DNA of 64,000 nucleotides from an uncultured Alphaproteobacteria bacterium (lineage in GTDB: Bacteria; Pseudomonadota; Alphaproteobacteria; RF32; CAG-239), in the NCBI GenBank assembly GCA_944390355.1, contig CALXPT010000006.1:5826-69825 (forward strand), in the 5' to 3' direction. The notes under the pieces are model-generated. The model was not told where the DNA came from and did not search any database. It was given only the letters and a program-made list of their open reading frames with translations. This document shows, piece after piece, positions 3,807-60,191 of the stretch; position 1 is the first letter of the stretch; every line of letters starts with the position of its first letter. A program made the position numbers and the translations under genes.

Positions 3807-4313
3807 ATGACCATGAAGCGCATAATCGTCAACGACAAAATGCAATCGGGATATAGTTATGAACTCTCGGCACCGACAGGCCGAGATTTTGCGGCAGGCT
3901 TCACACCGGAACTAACCCCGCAGCAAATGTTGGAAATGGGAGTATTTGAAGGCCATTACTTAACCGATTGCACAAACGAATTTCCCCGCGCATGGTTTGA
4001 AAAAGCCCGAATAAACAACGAGCGAGCGGATATAAGTTTAAACTATTTTCACGTTAAATCGCGTCTATCCTTACAAGAGTGGCAAAACAAAGGTTGGATA
4101 ATCGGCCCCGATATCAGAGGCTGGTTTCAATGGTATTGCCGCTACTATTACGGCCGCCGCCTTGAAGATATAGACAAGATTCAAATCAAGCGTTGGCAAG
4201 CTTTCAAAAGGCATAAGGCGCAAATTTTAAAAAATTGTTATATAGGAGATATAGACTGCCGACCGCGCCAACGTCAAGCCTTATTACAATGGGCATATAA
4301 CCCGTTATTTTAG
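3807..4313 (+). CDS. Conserved hypothetical protein (aromatic/Arg-rich motif GWFQWYCRYYYGRR)
   Basis: 168-aa ORF with coding-like composition. I do not recognise a family. Confidence 0.5.
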   Translation: MTMKRIIVNDKMQSGYSYELSAPTGRDFAAGFTPELTPQQMLEMGVFEGHYLTDCTNEFPRAWFEKARINNERADISLNYFHVKSRLSLQEWQNKGWIIGPDIRGWFQWYCRYYYGRRLEDIDKIQIKRWQAFKRHKAQILKNCYIGDIDCRPRQRQALLQWAYNPLF

Positions 4314-4317
4314 AAAT

Positions 4318-4344
4318 ACAAAAAAAGCACTACCGAAGTAGTGC
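4318..4344 (-). terminator. Rho-independent terminator for the minus-strand gene 4361..4720 (bidirectional hairpin)
   Basis: Perfect hairpin gcactac-cgaa-gtagtgc. An A-run on the plus strand gives a T-run on the minus strand. Confidence 0.6.
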
Positions 4345-4360
4345 CCAATCAAGGAAAAGA

Positions 4361-4720
4361 TTATTTTCTGTCTTCCAAAGAGCGTTGATAAAGCTCATCA
4401 ATAAAAGCCAAAGCATTTTTATTGGTAGACATGCTCACCTCCGCATTTAAGCGATTAACATTAGACGGCCACAAACTGTATTTTGAGGTGTAATCTTCCA
4501 ACAGCTTTTTAGCCTCGGCGCATTTTTCCGCATGAGAATCACAGTCAAGATGCCGCCCCCCGATAGTTTTGTCATGATTCTGCAAATACATACAAACATG
4601 TCTGAGCATAGCATACTCATCATTAACGTTAATACGATAATGCTGTACAAACTCACCAATTTCCTTAAATTTGTTAGAAACAACCAAAGCGGTGATTTCT
4701 TCTTTAGATAATTCTTTCAT
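4361..4720 (-). CDS. Hypothetical small protein, paralog A (HxDC...C motif)
   Basis: 119 aa. Shares 'MLRHVCMYLQNHD..GRHLDC...C..KKLL..Y' with the 5099..5461 product 'MLHRVCSFLQNHD..GKHTDC...C..KQLI..Y'. Confidence 0.5.
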   Translation of the reverse strand: MKELSKEEITALVVSNKFKEIGEFVQHYRINVNDEYAMLRHVCMYLQNHDKTIGGRHLDCDSHAEKCAEAKKLLEDYTSKYSLWPSNVNRLNAEVSMSTNKNALAFIDELYQRSLEDRK

Positions 4721-4857
4721 AATTATAAATTTTAAGAGATTAATAAAAATAAGTTATCGAAGACATGAGTATTACGAAAAAATACAATTGTCAACAAACA
4801 AAATAAAAAATATGCTTGTAAGAGAAAAAAATATGGAGTAAAAGACAAGAAAAAGAA

Positions 4858-4934
4858 GTATCCGTAGCTCAATTGGATAGAGTGTCGGCCTCCGACGCCG
4901 AAGGTTGTGGGTTCGATCCCCGCCGGATACGCCA
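4858..4934 (+). tRNA. tRNA-Arg (anticodon CCG), 77 nt, CCA encoded
   Basis: Manual cloverleaf. Acceptor gtatccg/cggatac. D-stem 10-13/23-26. Anticodon stem tcggc/gccga with loop ctCCGac. T-arm gtggg-ttcgatc-ccccg. Confidence 0.9.
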
Positions 4935-4946
4935 ATAGAAAGATAT

Positions 4947-4984
4947 ACCTGCCGTTAGAGCGGGTATATTTTTTTAAATAAAAT
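4947..4984 (+). terminator. Rho-independent terminator after the tRNA-Arg gene
   Basis: Hairpin atatacctgc-cgttaga-gcgggtatat (one G-U pair) followed by ttttttt. Confidence 0.65.
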
Positions 4985-5098
4985 AATTTTTTTAATTTTA
5001 ATGGGGAAAAATGCTAGACAAAATAGAAAGAATGTATTATATAATTCCCCGAAGAGATTACAATTAACATATTATTAACCCTAAAAAATTTTTAAATT

Positions 5099-5461
5099 AT
5101 GGAAAAATTAACAGAAAGACAAGCAAAAGACTATGTGGCAGCCAAACCATTAGTACAAGTATTGAACTATGCCGCAACAAACAACGGCTTATCAGCCGAC
5201 TGCGAAAACATCATGCTGCACCGTGTGTGTTCATTTTTACAAAATCATGACGCATCCCTCCCCGGAAAGCACACGGATTGCTTAAGATATGCCCGCACTT
5301 GCGGACACATCAAGCAGCTGATAAGCAGTTATATTGAAGACCACGGTATTCACGTGGAAAATCTTGAATATCTACAGCAAGGCAAAGAAGGTGAGTTCAA
5401 CACCGGCGCAGTCCAATTCATCTTGGAAAAACACCAAGAGCTGACTGCCAAGAAAAAGTAA
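5099..5461 (+). CDS. Hypothetical small protein, paralog B (HxDC...C motif)
   Basis: 120 aa, paralogous to 4361..4720 (see above). Followed by a strong terminator. Confidence 0.5.
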   Translation: MEKLTERQAKDYVAAKPLVQVLNYAATNNGLSADCENIMLHRVCSFLQNHDASLPGKHTDCLRYARTCGHIKQLISSYIEDHGIHVENLEYLQQGKEGEFNTGAVQFILEKHQELTAKKK

Positions 5462-5482
5462 AAAATCTACACTGTTAATTCA

Positions 5483-5522
5483 AACGTATCGGAATACAAA
5501 CGATTCCGATACGTTTTTTTAT
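5483..5522 (+). terminator. Rho-independent terminator
   Basis: Perfect 13-bp stem aacgtatcggaat / attccgatacgtt, loop acaaacg, followed by ttttttt. Confidence 0.8.
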
Positions 5523-7669: not shown

Positions 7670-8095
7670 CTATTCAGCCGAGTCTTCAGGCGTTTTTTTG
7701 CGTTTTTCAAAAGAAAATGAGGCTTTAAGAGAAGTCTTTTCAAATTTCATTCCCGCATAATCATATTGAGACTTATCCGGAGTCGCTTTGGAATTTTGGC
7801 ACTGACGAGCCTGTTCATCATGATGACAATGTCCCCCACAACGGCATTCACCATGTCTTCCGCTTTCACAACAACAGTCATGAGCCTCATGAGAGGTACA
7901 ACAATCGCCTTGCCCGCATGAGCAACCGCAAGCGCAATTTTCCGTCTCATTAACGGCATCATCAGGCACATTCTGCCCCTTTTCCGTCAACACCGCCTTT
8001 TGCATTTTTCTAAGTTTTGCACGTTGCTGAGCCCCGCAAGAACAAGTACCTTGCACAGGGGCATGAATAATTAAATTTGCCAGCCATTTAAACAT
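7670..8095 (-). CDS. Cys/His-rich putative metal-binding protein (no recognised family)
   Basis: 141 aa with 19 Cys and 9 His, e.g. 'CACGCSCGQGDCCTSHEAHDCCCESGRHGECRCGGHCHH'. Strong RBS (AGGAGA, spacing 7) upstream of the ATG on the minus strand. Confidence 0.55.
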   Translation of the reverse strand: MFKWLANLIIHAPVQGTCSCGAQQRAKLRKMQKAVLTEKGQNVPDDAVNETENCACGCSCGQGDCCTSHEAHDCCCESGRHGECRCGGHCHHDEQARQCQNSKATPDKSQYDYAGMKFEKTSLKASFSFEKRKKTPEDSAE

Positions 8096-58673: not shown

Positions 58674-59357
58674 ATGAAAGAAATTGGTCATAGGATTAGC
58701 ATTTTTAAGCACACTAGCCCAAACGAAGGCTCAGTGATAACGATTACCGGCAAAGACGGAACAAAAAATTATCATGTTCAATCCGTTACGACACACATAG
58801 CCGTTCACCGACACAATTGTGAAAATTGGCTTTATGCCGCAACCGATAGCAACGGACAATTTATTTTTTTCTTAGAAAGAATAAAATACGAATGCCTGAA
58901 AACCGTTTTTTTTCCGGAAGAAGCGCAAAACGCCGAACAGTATAAATACACGGCCGACGGAATGTTTTATTATCAAAAAAACGGGCAATGGTACATTCTT
59001 AACAAAGAAAATACATTGCTCGGCAAGAAAATATTATCTGAGTTCTTTGTCAAAAAAGATGAGGACAATTCCTACATCATCACACATGAACAAGATTGCA
59101 GCAGCAGCACATTTAAATGCAAAAGCTACAAAATTGCAACAGATGACAATAATGAGAAATGCCTCTTATTAGGCGGCGTTAATGAAAAACGAGAACATTT
59201 TACCATTCTTAACAAGCACGGTCTCGTATCACCTTTCAATTATTTCTTTGCGCTAAACATTGACGGCGAGCACACGCTTTTCAGAAACGAAGGAAATTAT
59301 TGGATAACGCCGGACAGAAAAGTTTCCGAAGAGCTTTACCAATTTGATCAAGATTAA
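58674..59357 (+). CDS. Hypothetical 227-aa protein, tandem paralog 1
   Basis: Shares 'EAQNAEQYKYTADG(M/V)FYYQKNG(Q/L)WYIL', 'FKCKSYK', 'NECLLLG' and 'EGNYWITPDRKV(S/P)EELYQFDQD' with paralog 2. Confidence 0.6.
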   Translation: MKEIGHRISIFKHTSPNEGSVITITGKDGTKNYHVQSVTTHIAVHRHNCENWLYAATDSNGQFIFFLERIKYECLKTVFFPEEAQNAEQYKYTADGMFYYQKNGQWYILNKENTLLGKKILSEFFVKKDEDNSYIITHEQDCSSSTFKCKSYKIATDDNNEKCLLLGGVNEKREHFTILNKHGLVSPFNYFFALNIDGEHTLFRNEGNYWITPDRKVSEELYQFDQD

Positions 59358-59364
59358 AAAAAAC

Positions 59365-59400
59365 AACCTTAGAGTCTAAAACCTCTAAGGTTATTTTTTA
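59365..59400 (+). terminator. Rho-independent terminator (copy 1)
   Basis: aaccttagag-tctaaaac-ctctaaggtt followed by attttttag. Confidence 0.8.
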
Positions 59401-59507
59401 GCTTTCTTTATTGAAAGATTACCCATTAATTAACACTTTACAAATTTATCAAAAAATGCTACCTAAATCACAGATAAATTTATTATTACCCCTAAAATAA
59501 TTATGTT

Positions 59508-60191
59508 ATGAAAAAAATTGGTACAAGGATTGAAATTCTCAATCTCAACACAAAAAAGGAAAAAAACAAAGGTTACCTCATCACCGTTTTTTCAAATAAC
59601 GGAAAACATGAGATTCAAGCTTTATCCGTCAAAAATCTTGAAAGGTTTAACAGCAACTACCAAAACACATGGTTGTATATTATAGTTGATAAAGACAACC
59701 ATCGACTATTTTTTCTTGAATCGGAAGCTCACGGGTGCATTTATCAACTTGATGAAGCTCAAAACGCCGAGCAGTACAAATACACGGCAGACGGAGTGTT
59801 TTACTATCAAAAAAACGGCTTGTGGTATATCCTTGGCTCAGAAATCATATTATTAGGAAAAGAAATATTACCTTATATCTTCATCAAAAAAACTGAAGAT
59901 AACTCTTACCTTGTAACACATAGCCGCCTTAGAACAGATACATTCAAGTGCAAAAGCTACAAAGTTATAAAAGCTAGTAATGGAAACGAATGCCTTTTGT
60001 TGGGCGATGTCACAGAAAAAAGGGAATATTTCATCATTCTAAGCTCACAAGAAGTTATTCATTCTTTTGTTCAGCTTTACATTGAACTAATCATTGATAA
60101 TAAAAGCGTTCTATTCAAGGATGAAGGAAATTATTGGATAACGCCGGACAGAAAAGTTCCCGAAGAGCTTTACCAATTTGATCAAGATTAA
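59508..60191 (+). CDS. Hypothetical 227-aa protein, tandem paralog 2
   Basis: See paralog 1. The 3' ~80 nt and the terminator are nearly identical to copy 1. Confidence 0.6.
   Translation: MKKIGTRIEILNLNTKKEKNKGYLITVFSNNGKHEIQALSVKNLERFNSNYQNTWLYIIVDKDNHRLFFLESEAHGCIYQLDEAQNAEQYKYTADGVFYYQKNGLWYILGSEIILLGKEILPYIFIKKTEDNSYLVTHSRLRTDTFKCKSYKVIKASNGNECLLLGDVTEKREYFIILSSQEVIHSFVQLYIELIIDNKSVLFKDEGNYWITPDRKVPEELYQFDQD

What the first reader, a model, noticed from the sequence alone, without database searches (positions are those of the whole stretch)
4361..5461. Two paralogous Cys/His-motif small proteins arranged divergently around tRNA-Arg(CCG)
The ~120-aa ORFs on opposite strands flank the tRNA gene and share a core (ML(R/H)(H/R)VC.(Y/F)LQNHD...G(R/K)H.DC...A..C...K(K/Q)L(L/I)..Y) and similar C-termini. 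Each has its own strong rho-independent terminator, as does the tRNA. tRNA genes are common integration targets, but there is no integrase or direct repeat of the tRNA 3' end nearby. This looks like a fixed, possibly functional arrangement, e.g. a small regulator pair or duplicated antitoxin-like proteins. The conserved H-x-D-C ... C pattern hints at metal or redox chemistry. I do not recognise the family.
Basis: seen in the sequence. Interest (0 to 1): 0.55.

Follow-up and report, generated by a model that had tools for sequence, protein, structure and literature searches.

The report
Orphan paralog pair flanking tRNA-Arg
Two real, related genes for small helical proteins of unknown function sit on either side of a tRNA gene in an uncultured alphaproteobacterium; they belong to a tiny, fast-evolving family found only in this clade, and they are not the remains of a mobile element.

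Summary
A (4361-4720, -) and B (5099-5461, +) are true paralogs (31% identity, E 9e-16) diverging from tRNA-Arg(CCG) (4858-4934). All three have real terminators.

There is no integrase and no repeat of the tRNA 3' end, so this is not an island.

The family matches nothing in Pfam, NCBIfam, PHROGs or PADLOC. It has about 18 clusters among 5.8 billion proteins, all in one clade of uncultured Alphaproteobacteria (DnaB 88-97% identical). Both proteins model confidently as the same six-helix fold, with no significant PDB or viral match.

B is the ancestral-position copy: every relative has one copy between tRNA-Arg and rpmB-dnaB. A is a subclade-specific inverted duplicate. It is less constrained (dN/dS 0.15-0.48 against 0.06-0.16) and is deleted in one strain.

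Only two cysteines (C43, C67) and a few other residues are invariant.

Unexpectedly, the gene is hypervariable. Two relatives with 92-98% identical flanking proteins share only 43% identity here, and the divergence has sharp edges.

Function is unknown. My best guess is a thiol-dependent binding module under rapid turnover. Interest is moderate.

The parts
4361..4720 (-). Gene A: 119-aa member of the orphan family. It is the subclade-specific inverted duplicate.
   Evidence: ORF. Paralogous to B at E 9e-16. Orthologues are 58-96% identical. dN/dS is 0.15-0.48. AF2 six-helix model has pLDDT 87.7. It is absent in L007.
4325..4346 (-). Intrinsic terminator of A. It also faces the 3' end of the 168-aa gene, so it is probably bidirectional.
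   Evidence: Terminator scan. Fold energy -12.2 kcal/mol, z -3.9.
4721..4857 (.). 137-bp divergent promoter region between A and the tRNA. Predicted elements are an A -35 box TTGACA (4794->4789, - strand) and a tRNA -35-like block GCTTGTAA (4814-4821, + strand). The A 5'UTR motif TTTTATTAATC lies at 4748->4738. A has no Shine-Dalgarno sequence.
   Evidence: These blocks are conserved between A-tRNA spacers and the tRNA-X spacers of relatives, with the same 119-140 bp spacing. Motif search. Promoter elements are predicted, not measured.
4858..4934 (+). tRNA-Arg, anticodon CCG.
   Evidence: ARAGORN. Rfam RF00005, 64.7 bits. 96-97% identical over its full length in most relatives (91-95% over partial matches in L008/L009 and L016/L017), always next to the family gene.
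4936..4976 (+). Intrinsic terminator of the tRNA. It insulates B from tRNA read-through.
   Evidence: Inverted repeat I9. Fold energy -20.6 kcal/mol, z -6.6, followed by a T7 run.
5014..5098 (+). B promoter and leader. Predicted elements are a -35 box TAGACA (5015-5020) and a -10 box TATATA/TATAAT (5038-5045). The conserved 5'UTR motif TATTATTAACC lies at 5070-5080. B has no Shine-Dalgarno sequence.
   Evidence: Alignment with upstream regions of B and X orthologues. The CT[AG]GACAA(A)AT and TATTATTAAYC blocks are conserved across clades whose proteins are only 26-42% identical. SD survey. Predicted, not measured.
5099..5461 (+). Gene B: 120-aa member of the orphan family. It is the ancestral-position copy upstream of rpmB-dnaB.
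   Evidence: ORF. Orthologues are 71-99% identical. dN/dS is 0.06-0.16. AF2 six-helix model has pLDDT 85.9. One copy sits in this position in every related genome examined.
5482..5516 (+). Intrinsic terminator of B. It separates B from rpmB.
   Evidence: 14-bp perfect stem followed by a T-run. Fold energy -18.1 kcal/mol, z -5.3.

Best explanation
A and B are two copies of a clade-restricted orphan gene, not a mobile-element remnant or a two-component system.

Shown:
- Every sampled genome of this group of uncultured Alphaproteobacteria carries one family gene wedged between tRNA-Arg(CCG) and rpmB-dnaB.
- The window's subclade carries a second, inverted copy (A) on the other side of the tRNA.
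- A is less constrained, carries a loop deletion in one lineage, and has been deleted in one strain.
- Each copy is a monocistronic unit with its own conserved upstream blocks and a strong terminator.
- The products are soluble, near-neutral proteins of about 120 aa that model confidently as a six-helix bundle or solenoid.
- The invariant residues are M1, E35, C43, L46, Q47, C67 and Y77 (A numbering).
- The gene is the fastest-diverging element of its conserved neighbourhood. In at least one pair of genomes it was exchanged as a cassette with sharp edges.

Inferred:
- A arose by inverted duplication of the ancestral [tRNA <-> gene] unit, followed by loss of one tRNA copy.
- The upstream blocks are a sigma-70-type -35 box plus a TGn-extended -10 box, followed by an SD-less AU-rich leader that carries a conserved TATTATTAAYC element.
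- C43 (helix 3) and C67 (helix 4) lie on the conserved faces of two consecutive antiparallel helices joined by the variable loop. They probably form one thiol site, either a disulfide or persulfide switch or a ligand or metal contact.
- Because so little else is conserved and alleles turn over quickly, the protein most likely works by binding a partner that itself changes, rather than as an enzyme. A would then act as a spare or second-specificity copy.
For: - Paralogy.
- Orphan status: searches give no family. One search finds 8 representatives among 1.84 billion proteins. One search finds 18 clusters among 5.8 billion. One search finds 1 of 185,579 GTDB species genomes. One search finds none in IMG/VR.
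- Synteny and the three arrangements.
- B/X against A: tree and identity matrix (B-X2 32-38%, A-X2 21-27%).
- Loss of A in L007: (dS 0.028 against L001).
- Selection: and (piN/piS of A is 0.37).
- Fold.
- Lack of structural neighbours.
- Invariant residues and the non-conserved HxDC motif.
- Promoter and UTR conservation.
- Terminators.
- Hypervariability:
  - L010 against L012 flanks are 92-98% identical in protein and the family gene 43%.
  - the nucleotide identity trough of 42-72% has sharp edges.
  - flank dS is 0.13-0.73 and dN 0.009-0.078, while the family gene has dN 0.44 and saturated dS.
  - A is a mosaic.
Against: - There is no experimental or homology-based functional evidence at all.
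- The Cys-Cys proximity was reasoned from helix boundaries, not measured.
- The two cysteines could simply be core residues.
- Within species, A and B show purifying rather than positive selection. The hypervariability may therefore reflect occasional allele import plus relaxed constraint, not an arms race.
- The promoter -10 box of A is weak under any reading.
- The tree is unrooted, so which of A and B is the 'original' rests on position and similarity only.
Confidence: 0.55

Rival explanations
1. Orphan immunity-, antitoxin- or anti-phage-type proteins. On this reading A and B are specificity determinants that neutralise a polymorphic toxin or phage factor encoded elsewhere. Diversifying or frequency-dependent selection and cassette swapping would explain the hypervariability and the extra, dispensable copy.
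For: - The divergence island is sharply bounded in otherwise near-identical flanks.
- One copy is duplicated and one is lost at strain level.
- The best PDB fold hit of A is a chain of a CdiA-CT/CdiI complex (5t87_C, probability 0.90, TM 0.47, E 0.32).
- Relatives carry AbiH plus a prophage, or an orphan methyltransferase, on the tRNA's other side.
Against: - No toxin or partner gene is adjacent, and each gene is monocistronic with its own terminator.
- There is no PADLOC, Pfam or PHROG hit.
- The CdiI-like hit is not significant and is not reproduced with B's model.
- The gene is core to the clade and sits among housekeeping genes.
- There is none on viral contigs.
- Within-species dN/dS is below 1.
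Confidence: 0.15
2. Metal-binding or redox protein that uses the reader's H-x-D-C...C pattern, for example a Zn, Cu or Fe-S site.
For: - Two invariant cysteines lie on adjacent helices.
- Extra His and Cys residues are common in the intervening loop of the A, B and L016 alleles.
- The neighbourhood contains other Cys-rich proteins, namely a CxxCxxCC protein and a Cys/His-rich 141-aa ORF.
Against: - H57, D59 and C60 are absent from the X1 clade and are deleted in L014_A, P0010 and P0011.
- P0021 has 2 Cys and 0 His.
- Two thiols per monomer cannot form a complete tetrahedral site without oligomerisation.
- There is no match to CsoR/RcnR (Pfam; hhalign probability 0.3%) or to a ZAS-type HxxxCxxC motif.
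Confidence: 0.15
3. A pair of small transcription regulators that control the tRNA, each other, or rpmB-dnaB.
For: - The proteins are small and all-helical.
- Some low-ranking fold hits are TetR-family proteins.
- A conserved element (TATTATTAAYC) lies downstream of the predicted promoters of A, B, X and of two unrelated 227-aa genes. It could be an operator.
Against: - The TetR hits have TM 0.2-0.35 and probability at most 0.3.
- There is no HTH profile.
- pI is 6.2-8.8 for most members.
- Extreme sequence turnover is atypical for a regulator of essential genes.
- The shared element is not a palindrome.
Confidence: 0.08
4. Remnant of an element integrated at the tRNA gene, that is, a genomic island or prophage scar.
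For: - tRNA genes are integration hot spots.
- In relative L008 a prophage-like block with a serine recombinase lies beside the tRNA cluster.
- The left flank of the tRNA differs among lineages.
Against: - No tRNA 3'-end repeat occurs in 64 kb.
- No integrase or transposase is present among the ORFs scanned from 163 to 25644, or in the 20-kb syntenic loci.
- The B/X copy is present in all relatives at the same place.
- The family is absent from viral contigs.
- GC content is not distinct from neighbouring intergenic-rich sequence.
Confidence: 0.03
5. Degenerate LOV- or PAS-derived module that keeps the flavin-adduct cysteine motif (C-R-[FY]-L-Q).
For: - The only PDB sequence hits of the family profile are LOV domains, aligned over the NCRFLQG motif (E 0.5-0.8).
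- hhalign against Avena LOV2 gives 28 aligned columns, probability 27% and pairwise P 7e-4.
Against: - The hits are not significant at database level.
- Both AF2 models are confidently all-alpha with no beta-sheet, whereas the PAS beta-sheet is what holds the flavin.
- The C-terminal half has no similarity to LOV.
Confidence: 0.03

Closest known systems
LOV (light-oxygen-voltage) PAS domains, Cα-Eα helical segment with the GRNCRFLQG motif
   Same: There is a local sequence resemblance: A[ST]xxFxx[IL]xxY ... E.[IL]L.[RH].C.[FY]LQ, including an invariant Cys-x-[FY]-L-Q. This is the only recurrent hit in PDB profile searches.
   Different: The match is not statistically significant (E 0.5-0.8, hhalign probability 27%). 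The family is predicted to be all-alpha with six helices, so it lacks the five-stranded PAS sheet that binds the flavin. The C-terminal half is unrelated. The family is not a member.
CdiI-type immunity proteins of contact-dependent inhibition systems (PDB 5T87 chain C)
   Same: Both are small all-helical proteins of about 115-120 aa. 5T87 chain C is the best Foldseek hit for A (probability 0.90, TM 0.47). The evolutionary pattern is also alike: hypervariable alleles, cassette exchange and extra dispensable copies.
   Different: The hit has E 0.32 and 9% identity, and it is not recovered with B's model. No CdiA, CdiB or any other toxin gene is nearby. The gene is core and syntenic among housekeeping genes. 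There is no PADLOC or Pfam hit.
CsoR/RcnR/CstR family (Pfam PF02583), all-alpha cysteine-based metal or persulfide sensors
   Same: Both are small, cytoplasmic and all-alpha, with a conserved cysteine pair 17-24 residues apart on neighbouring helices. CstR similarly uses just two Cys.
   Different: There is no Pfam match in any of 19 members, and hhalign probability is 0.3%. The family has six helices rather than a three-helix bundle. There is no W-X-Y-Z fingerprint, and no regulated efflux or sulfur-oxidation operon is adjacent.
Lineage-specific (ORFan) genes expanded by local duplication
   Same: The taxonomic range is narrow and no homologs are detectable outside the clade. The family evolves fast, has an inverted local duplicate with relaxed constraint, and shows strain-level loss.
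   Different: Unlike most ORFans, this gene is fixed in a housekeeping block next to a tRNA. It has a confidently predicted fold, strongly conserved expression signals and an invariant Cys pair.

Membership tests
tRNA-targeted integrative element / genomic island | Integrase or recombinase gene next to the tRNA | tested here: not met
   The ORFs scanned from 163 to 25644 and the 20-kb syntenic loci encode MatE, DUF805, an AlkD-like protein, L28, DnaB, YidC, EngB, NifU, MurJ, RodA, PBP2 and similar. None is a recombinase.
tRNA-targeted integrative element / genomic island | Direct repeat of the tRNA 3' end (attL/attR) | tested here: not met
   The 25-mer and 17-mer of the tRNA 3' end, with up to 3 mismatches, match only the tRNA itself in 64 kb.
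tRNA-targeted integrative element / genomic island | Patchy presence among close relatives | tested here: inconclusive
   The B/X copy is present in all relatives at the same site. A is present in 10 of 10 conspecific contigs but absent in L007, through a simple indel that leaves the tRNA promoter intact.
Type II toxin-antitoxin / polymorphic-toxin immunity | Cognate toxin gene adjacent, usually in the same operon | tested here: not met
   Each gene has its own upstream region and terminator. The neighbours are a tRNA, rpmB and a conserved 168-aa gene.
Type II toxin-antitoxin / polymorphic-toxin immunity | Profile or structural match to a known antitoxin, immunity or defence family | tested here: not met
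   PADLOC, Pfam, NCBIfam and PHROGs give nothing. The best fold hit, 5t87_C, has E 0.32 and TM 0.47 for A only.
LOV / PAS domain | Alpha/beta PAS fold with a five-stranded antiparallel sheet | tested here: not met
   The AF2 models of A and B contain six helices and no strands, with pLDDT 86-88.
LOV / PAS domain | GXNCRFLQ motif with a significant profile match | tested here: inconclusive
   The C-x-[FY]-L-Q motif is present and invariant. However, the PDB profile E-value is 0.5-0.8 and hhalign probability is 27% over 28 columns.
CsoR/RcnR/CstR (PF02583) | Match to the family HMM and a three-helix bundle architecture | tested here: not met
   There is no PF02583 hit in 19 members at E up to 10. 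The family has six helices.
Zinc-binding anti-sigma (ZAS) domain | H-x3-C-x2-C motif | tested here: not met
   No CxxC or HxxxCxxC appears in any member of the alignment.
Thiol-based redox or ligand site (generic) | Two conserved cysteines within bonding distance | not testable with these tools
   C43 and C67 are invariant. They lie on consecutive helices H3 and H4. Model coordinates could not be read, so the distance is inferred only.

The most novel reading that the evidence does not exclude
The locus may be a hypervariable specificity cassette. On this reading it encodes a previously undescribed all-alpha fold built around one invariant cysteine pair. It is permanently parked between tRNA-Arg(CCG) and rpmB-dnaB in a clade of uncultured Alphaproteobacteria and is exchanged between lineages by homologous recombination in the conserved flanks. 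It would act as a self/non-self, anti-phage or host-interaction determinant (orphan-immunity-like), and A would provide a second specificity. The shared promoter and 5'UTR element with the two tandem 227-aa orphan genes (58674-60191) would then mark a small clade-specific regulon.
Probability: 0.15. Interest if true: 0.6.

Novelty: categorically new. Interest (0 to 1): 0.38.

Why it matters
On its own this is a pair of hypothetical proteins in an uncultured bacterium, so the immediate impact is small. It is still worth recording for three reasons.

1. It defines a protein family and a confidently predicted fold that match nothing in Pfam, NCBIfam, PHROGs, PADLOC, the PDB or BFVD. 'Categorically new' here means unclassifiable with current libraries. 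It does not mean a demonstrated new mechanism.

2. The gene is a sharply bounded divergence hot spot inside one of the most conserved neighbourhoods of the genome (tRNA, rpmB, dnaB). Selection on interaction specificity usually produces this pattern, so the gene is a concrete candidate for a new specificity or immunity-type module in a poorly known, frequently sampled group of bacteria.

3. The locus gives a clean natural series: a single copy, an inverted duplicate, a decaying duplicate and a deleted duplicate. This is useful for studying how new small genes duplicate and die.

Tried and rejected
- Island hypothesis. I searched for repeats of the tRNA 3' end and for integrases. Nothing was found, so I rejected it.
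- CGG-codon link between the genes and tRNA-Arg(CCG). Family genes carry 0-1 CGG codons apart from L008_X, with no enrichment. Rejected.
- Known RNA elements in the intergenic regions. Rfam finds only the tRNA at gathering level, and nothing credible at E up to 1.
- Overlapping divergent -35 boxes, which would imply competition between the tRNA promoter and the A promoter. Comparison with the single-copy loci shows that the conserved tRNA-side block is GCTTG(T/A)A, about 20 bp away from the gene-side TTGACA box. I therefore dropped the competition idea.
- Further paralogs in the window. tblastn and an HMM against the six-frame translation found only A and B.
- Phage origin. There is no family member in IMG/VR and no PHROG hit.
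- Consistent weak Pfam hits across 19 members. None was found; the best hit was shared by only 2 members.
- CsoR/CstR relationship. hhalign probability is 0.3%.
- LOV relationship. The similarity is a local motif only and the fold is incompatible.
- Identifying the source study or habitat from sample names. The literature search found nothing relevant. The only taxonomic label obtained is 'uncultured Alphaproteobacteria bacterium'.
- My first L28 queries were out of frame, so the L28 rows should be ignored. L28 values are valid.
Full report
**1. What is there**

- ORF A, 4361..4720 on the minus strand, 119 aa.
- tRNA-Arg(CCG), 4858..4934 on the plus strand.
- ORF B, 5099..5461 on the plus strand, 120 aa.

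BLASTP aligns A and B over 90 residues without gaps, at 31% identity and E 9e-16. The paralogy is therefore real.

All three genes end in genuine hairpin-plus-T-run terminators:
- A: 4325-4346 (-).
- tRNA: 4936-4976 (+).
- B: 5482-5516 (+).
- Fold z-scores are -3.9, -6.6 and -5.3.

The tRNA 3' end has no second copy anywhere in the 64 kb, even with three mismatches. The ORFs scanned from 163 to 25644 encode housekeeping functions and no recombinase. The 20-kb syntenic loci of a sister species show the same. The island reading is rejected.

**2. The family**

Neither protein hits Pfam, NCBIfam, PHROGs or PADLOC. Scanning 19 family members one by one gave no recurrent weak hit either. The family is very small:

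| Search | Result |
|---|---|
| Exhaustive profile search of 1.84 billion representatives | 8 proteins with E up to 1e-3, two of them repeat-containing false positives |
| Indexed search of 5.8 billion clusters | 18 clusters, all 112-151 aa (one a 79-aa fragment) |
| 185,579 GTDB species genomes | one locus, titled 'uncultured Alphaproteobacteria bacterium' |
| IMG/VR viral contigs | none |
| Source names for the proteins | none |

AlphaFold2 models of A and B give the same six-helix architecture:
- A: 12-sequence alignment, pLDDT 87.7, pTM 0.82.
- B: 19-sequence alignment, pLDDT 85.9, pTM 0.80.

Foldseek against the PDB (both models) and BFVD (A) returned nothing with E below 0.3. The best hit was a chain of a CdiA-CT/CdiI complex (5t87_C, TM 0.47) for A, and B did not reproduce it.

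A family profile run against PDB sequences hits only LOV domains, over their NCRFLQG motif, at E 0.5-0.8. Because the models contain no beta-sheet, I treat this as a motif-level resemblance and not homology. CsoR, as an example of the all-alpha Cys-sensor class, scores 0.3%.

**3. What is conserved**

Across all clades the invariant residues are M1, E35, C43, L46, Q47, C67 and Y77 in A numbering. L4 and L91 are nearly invariant.

- The loop is shortened by 7 residues in one A lineage (L014_A, P0010, P0011).
- It is replaced in the single-copy clades.
- One member (P0021) has two Cys and no His at all.

The proteins are hydrophilic, and pI is 6.2-8.8 in all but one member.

C43 and C67 sit on the conserved faces of consecutive antiparallel helices, at similar distances from the connecting loop. 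A single shared thiol site is therefore plausible but not shown.

**4. Comparative anatomy**

Related contigs have DnaB 88-97% identical to the window's. They fall into three arrangements:

| Type | Loci | Arrangement |
|---|---|---|
| III | L008/9, L010/11, L012/13, L016/17, L030/31 | Variable left flank, tRNA-Arg(CCG) on the opposite strand, 119-136 bp, one family gene (X), then rpmB and dnaB |
| I | Window, 10 of 10 conspecific contigs, L001-6, L014-15 | 168-aa gene, A inverted, 135-140 bp, tRNA, 164-209 bp, B, then rpmB and dnaB |
| II | L007 | As type I but without A |

B occupies the ancestral position. It is also closer than A to the X2 clade, at 32-38% against 21-27% identity. In a neighbour-joining tree A, B and X form three clades, and A is separated from B plus X with 100% bootstrap support (unrooted).

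The A-tRNA pair mirrors the ancestral tRNA-X pair. It has the same divergent orientation, the same spacing and the same conserved blocks. B keeps the X-type -35 region, CT[AG]GACAAAATAGAAA. The simplest history is an inverted duplication of the [tRNA-gene] unit followed by loss of one tRNA. This is inference.

L007_B nests beside L001_B with dS 0.028, yet L001 carries A. In L007 about 510 bp, comprising A with its terminator and promoter, are replaced by about 105 bp of unrelated sequence. The tRNA-side promoter block is kept. A is therefore dispensable and was lost recently.

**5. Selection and tempo**

| Gene | dN/dS between orthologues | Within-species diversity |
|---|---|---|
| B | 0.06-0.16 | Not informative. 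The contigs were selected by exact B sequence, so piN = 0 by construction |
| A | 0.15-0.48 | More variable than its neighbours, piN/piS 0.37 |

Both genes are coding and constrained, and A is less constrained than B.

Between lineages the family gene diverges far faster than its block. L010 and L012 illustrate this:
- Flanking proteins are 92-98% identical, with dN 0.009-0.078 and dS 0.13-0.73.
- The family protein is 43% identical, with dN 0.44 and saturated dS.
- Nucleotide identity falls from 85-100% to 42-72% over about 400 bp that match the gene. The edges are sharp, and the sequence immediately downstream is 100% identical.

Saturated dS inside recent flanks points to allele import by recombination rather than in-place change alone.

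L001 against L014 shows a mosaic inside A. Codons 1-35 are 97% identical and the rest 52%. For that remainder dN is 0.33, while dS is about the genome average.

**6. Expression signals (predicted)**

The upstream regions of A, B and all X genes share:
- a -35 box, T[TGA][GT]ACAA;
- a TGnTA-type extended -10 box about 17 bp downstream;
- a leader with the element TATTATTAAYC at -27 to -17 from the ATG.

None has a Shine-Dalgarno sequence, although half of the long ORFs in the window have a clear one. The element occurs 10 times in the window with up to 1 mismatch, against 4.4 expected, and 0 of 100 shuffles reach 10. Four of the ten lie at the same distance upstream of start codons. These belong to A, B and two tandem, paralogous, Pfam-less 227-aa ORFs at 58674-60191.

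**7. Interpretation**

Shown: this is a clade-restricted orphan gene that is fixed beside tRNA-Arg and rpmB. It has a subclade-specific, decaying inverted duplicate, a new-looking helical fold, an invariant cysteine pair and exceptional sequence turnover.

Inferred: it is a thiol-dependent binding module whose partner changes, with A as a spare or second specificity. I hold this functional part at roughly 25%.

The rival readings are given with their evidence in the structured fields. They are orphan immunity or defence determinant (about 15%), metal site (about 15%), regulator (about 8%), island scar (about 3%) and LOV-derived module (about 3%).

**8. Verdict**

Paralogy, the absence of an island and the unknown family all stand. 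The claims of a fixed pair, an HxDC motif and a regulator or antitoxin role do not.
- The family is unclassifiable with current libraries, but its significance is untested.
- Interest is moderate, and it rests mainly on the hypervariable-cassette behaviour inside a core housekeeping block.

Noticed in passing
window 58674-59357 (+) and 59508-60191 (+): Two tandem paralogous 227-aa ORFs have no Pfam family. Their upstream regions share the layout of A, B and X: a -35 box TTTACA, a TGnTA extended -10 box, the element TATTATTA[AC]CC at -27 to -17, no Shine-Dalgarno sequence, and a TTATGAAA start. This may be a small clade-specific regulon or a common leader type.
   Followed up: partly
window 3807-4313 (+): A 168-aa ORF next to an AlkD-like DNA-alkylation-repair gene is 74-77% conserved in relatives. 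It has no hit in Pfam, NCBIfam, PHROGs, PADLOC or PDB sequences. It contains the striking motif GWFQWYCRYYYGRR.
   Followed up: partly
L010 735-1150 vs L012 (family gene X); L001 10105-10360 vs L014 (gene A): Sharply bounded divergence troughs (42-74% nucleotide identity) lie exactly over the family gene, within flanks that are 85-100% identical. This indicates cassette-like allele exchange and mosaicism.
   Followed up: yes
L008 1-5900: In a more distant relative a prophage-like block abuts a tRNA-Ser(CGA)/tRNA-Gly(GCC)/tRNA-Arg(CCG) cluster immediately upstream of the family gene. The block holds a terminase, DUF5681, a ParB-N6/N4 methyltransferase, DUF2924, a large serine recombinase and AbiH. 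The tRNA's far side is therefore a variable, integration-prone boundary in the clade.
   Followed up: partly
L012/L013 4319-5119: An N6/N4 DNA methyltransferase gene is inserted between the AlkD-like gene and the 166-aa gene in one lineage only.
   Followed up: no
window 7670-8095 (-): A 141-aa ORF is very rich in Cys and His (for example CACGCSCGQGDCC...CCCESGRHGECRCGGHCHH). It lies beside a CxxCxxCC (PF03692) gene and is only 39-46% identical in relatives whose DnaB is 88-97% identical. It is another fast-evolving gene and a probable metal binder.
   Followed up: no
It keeps both invariant cysteines.
   Followed up: yes
window 5036-5063 (-): A good sigma-70-like match (TTGTAA-16-TATAAT, 10 of 12) lies on the minus strand inside B's leader, pointing back towards the tRNA. 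It could be chance in AT-rich sequence or an antisense promoter.
   Followed up: no
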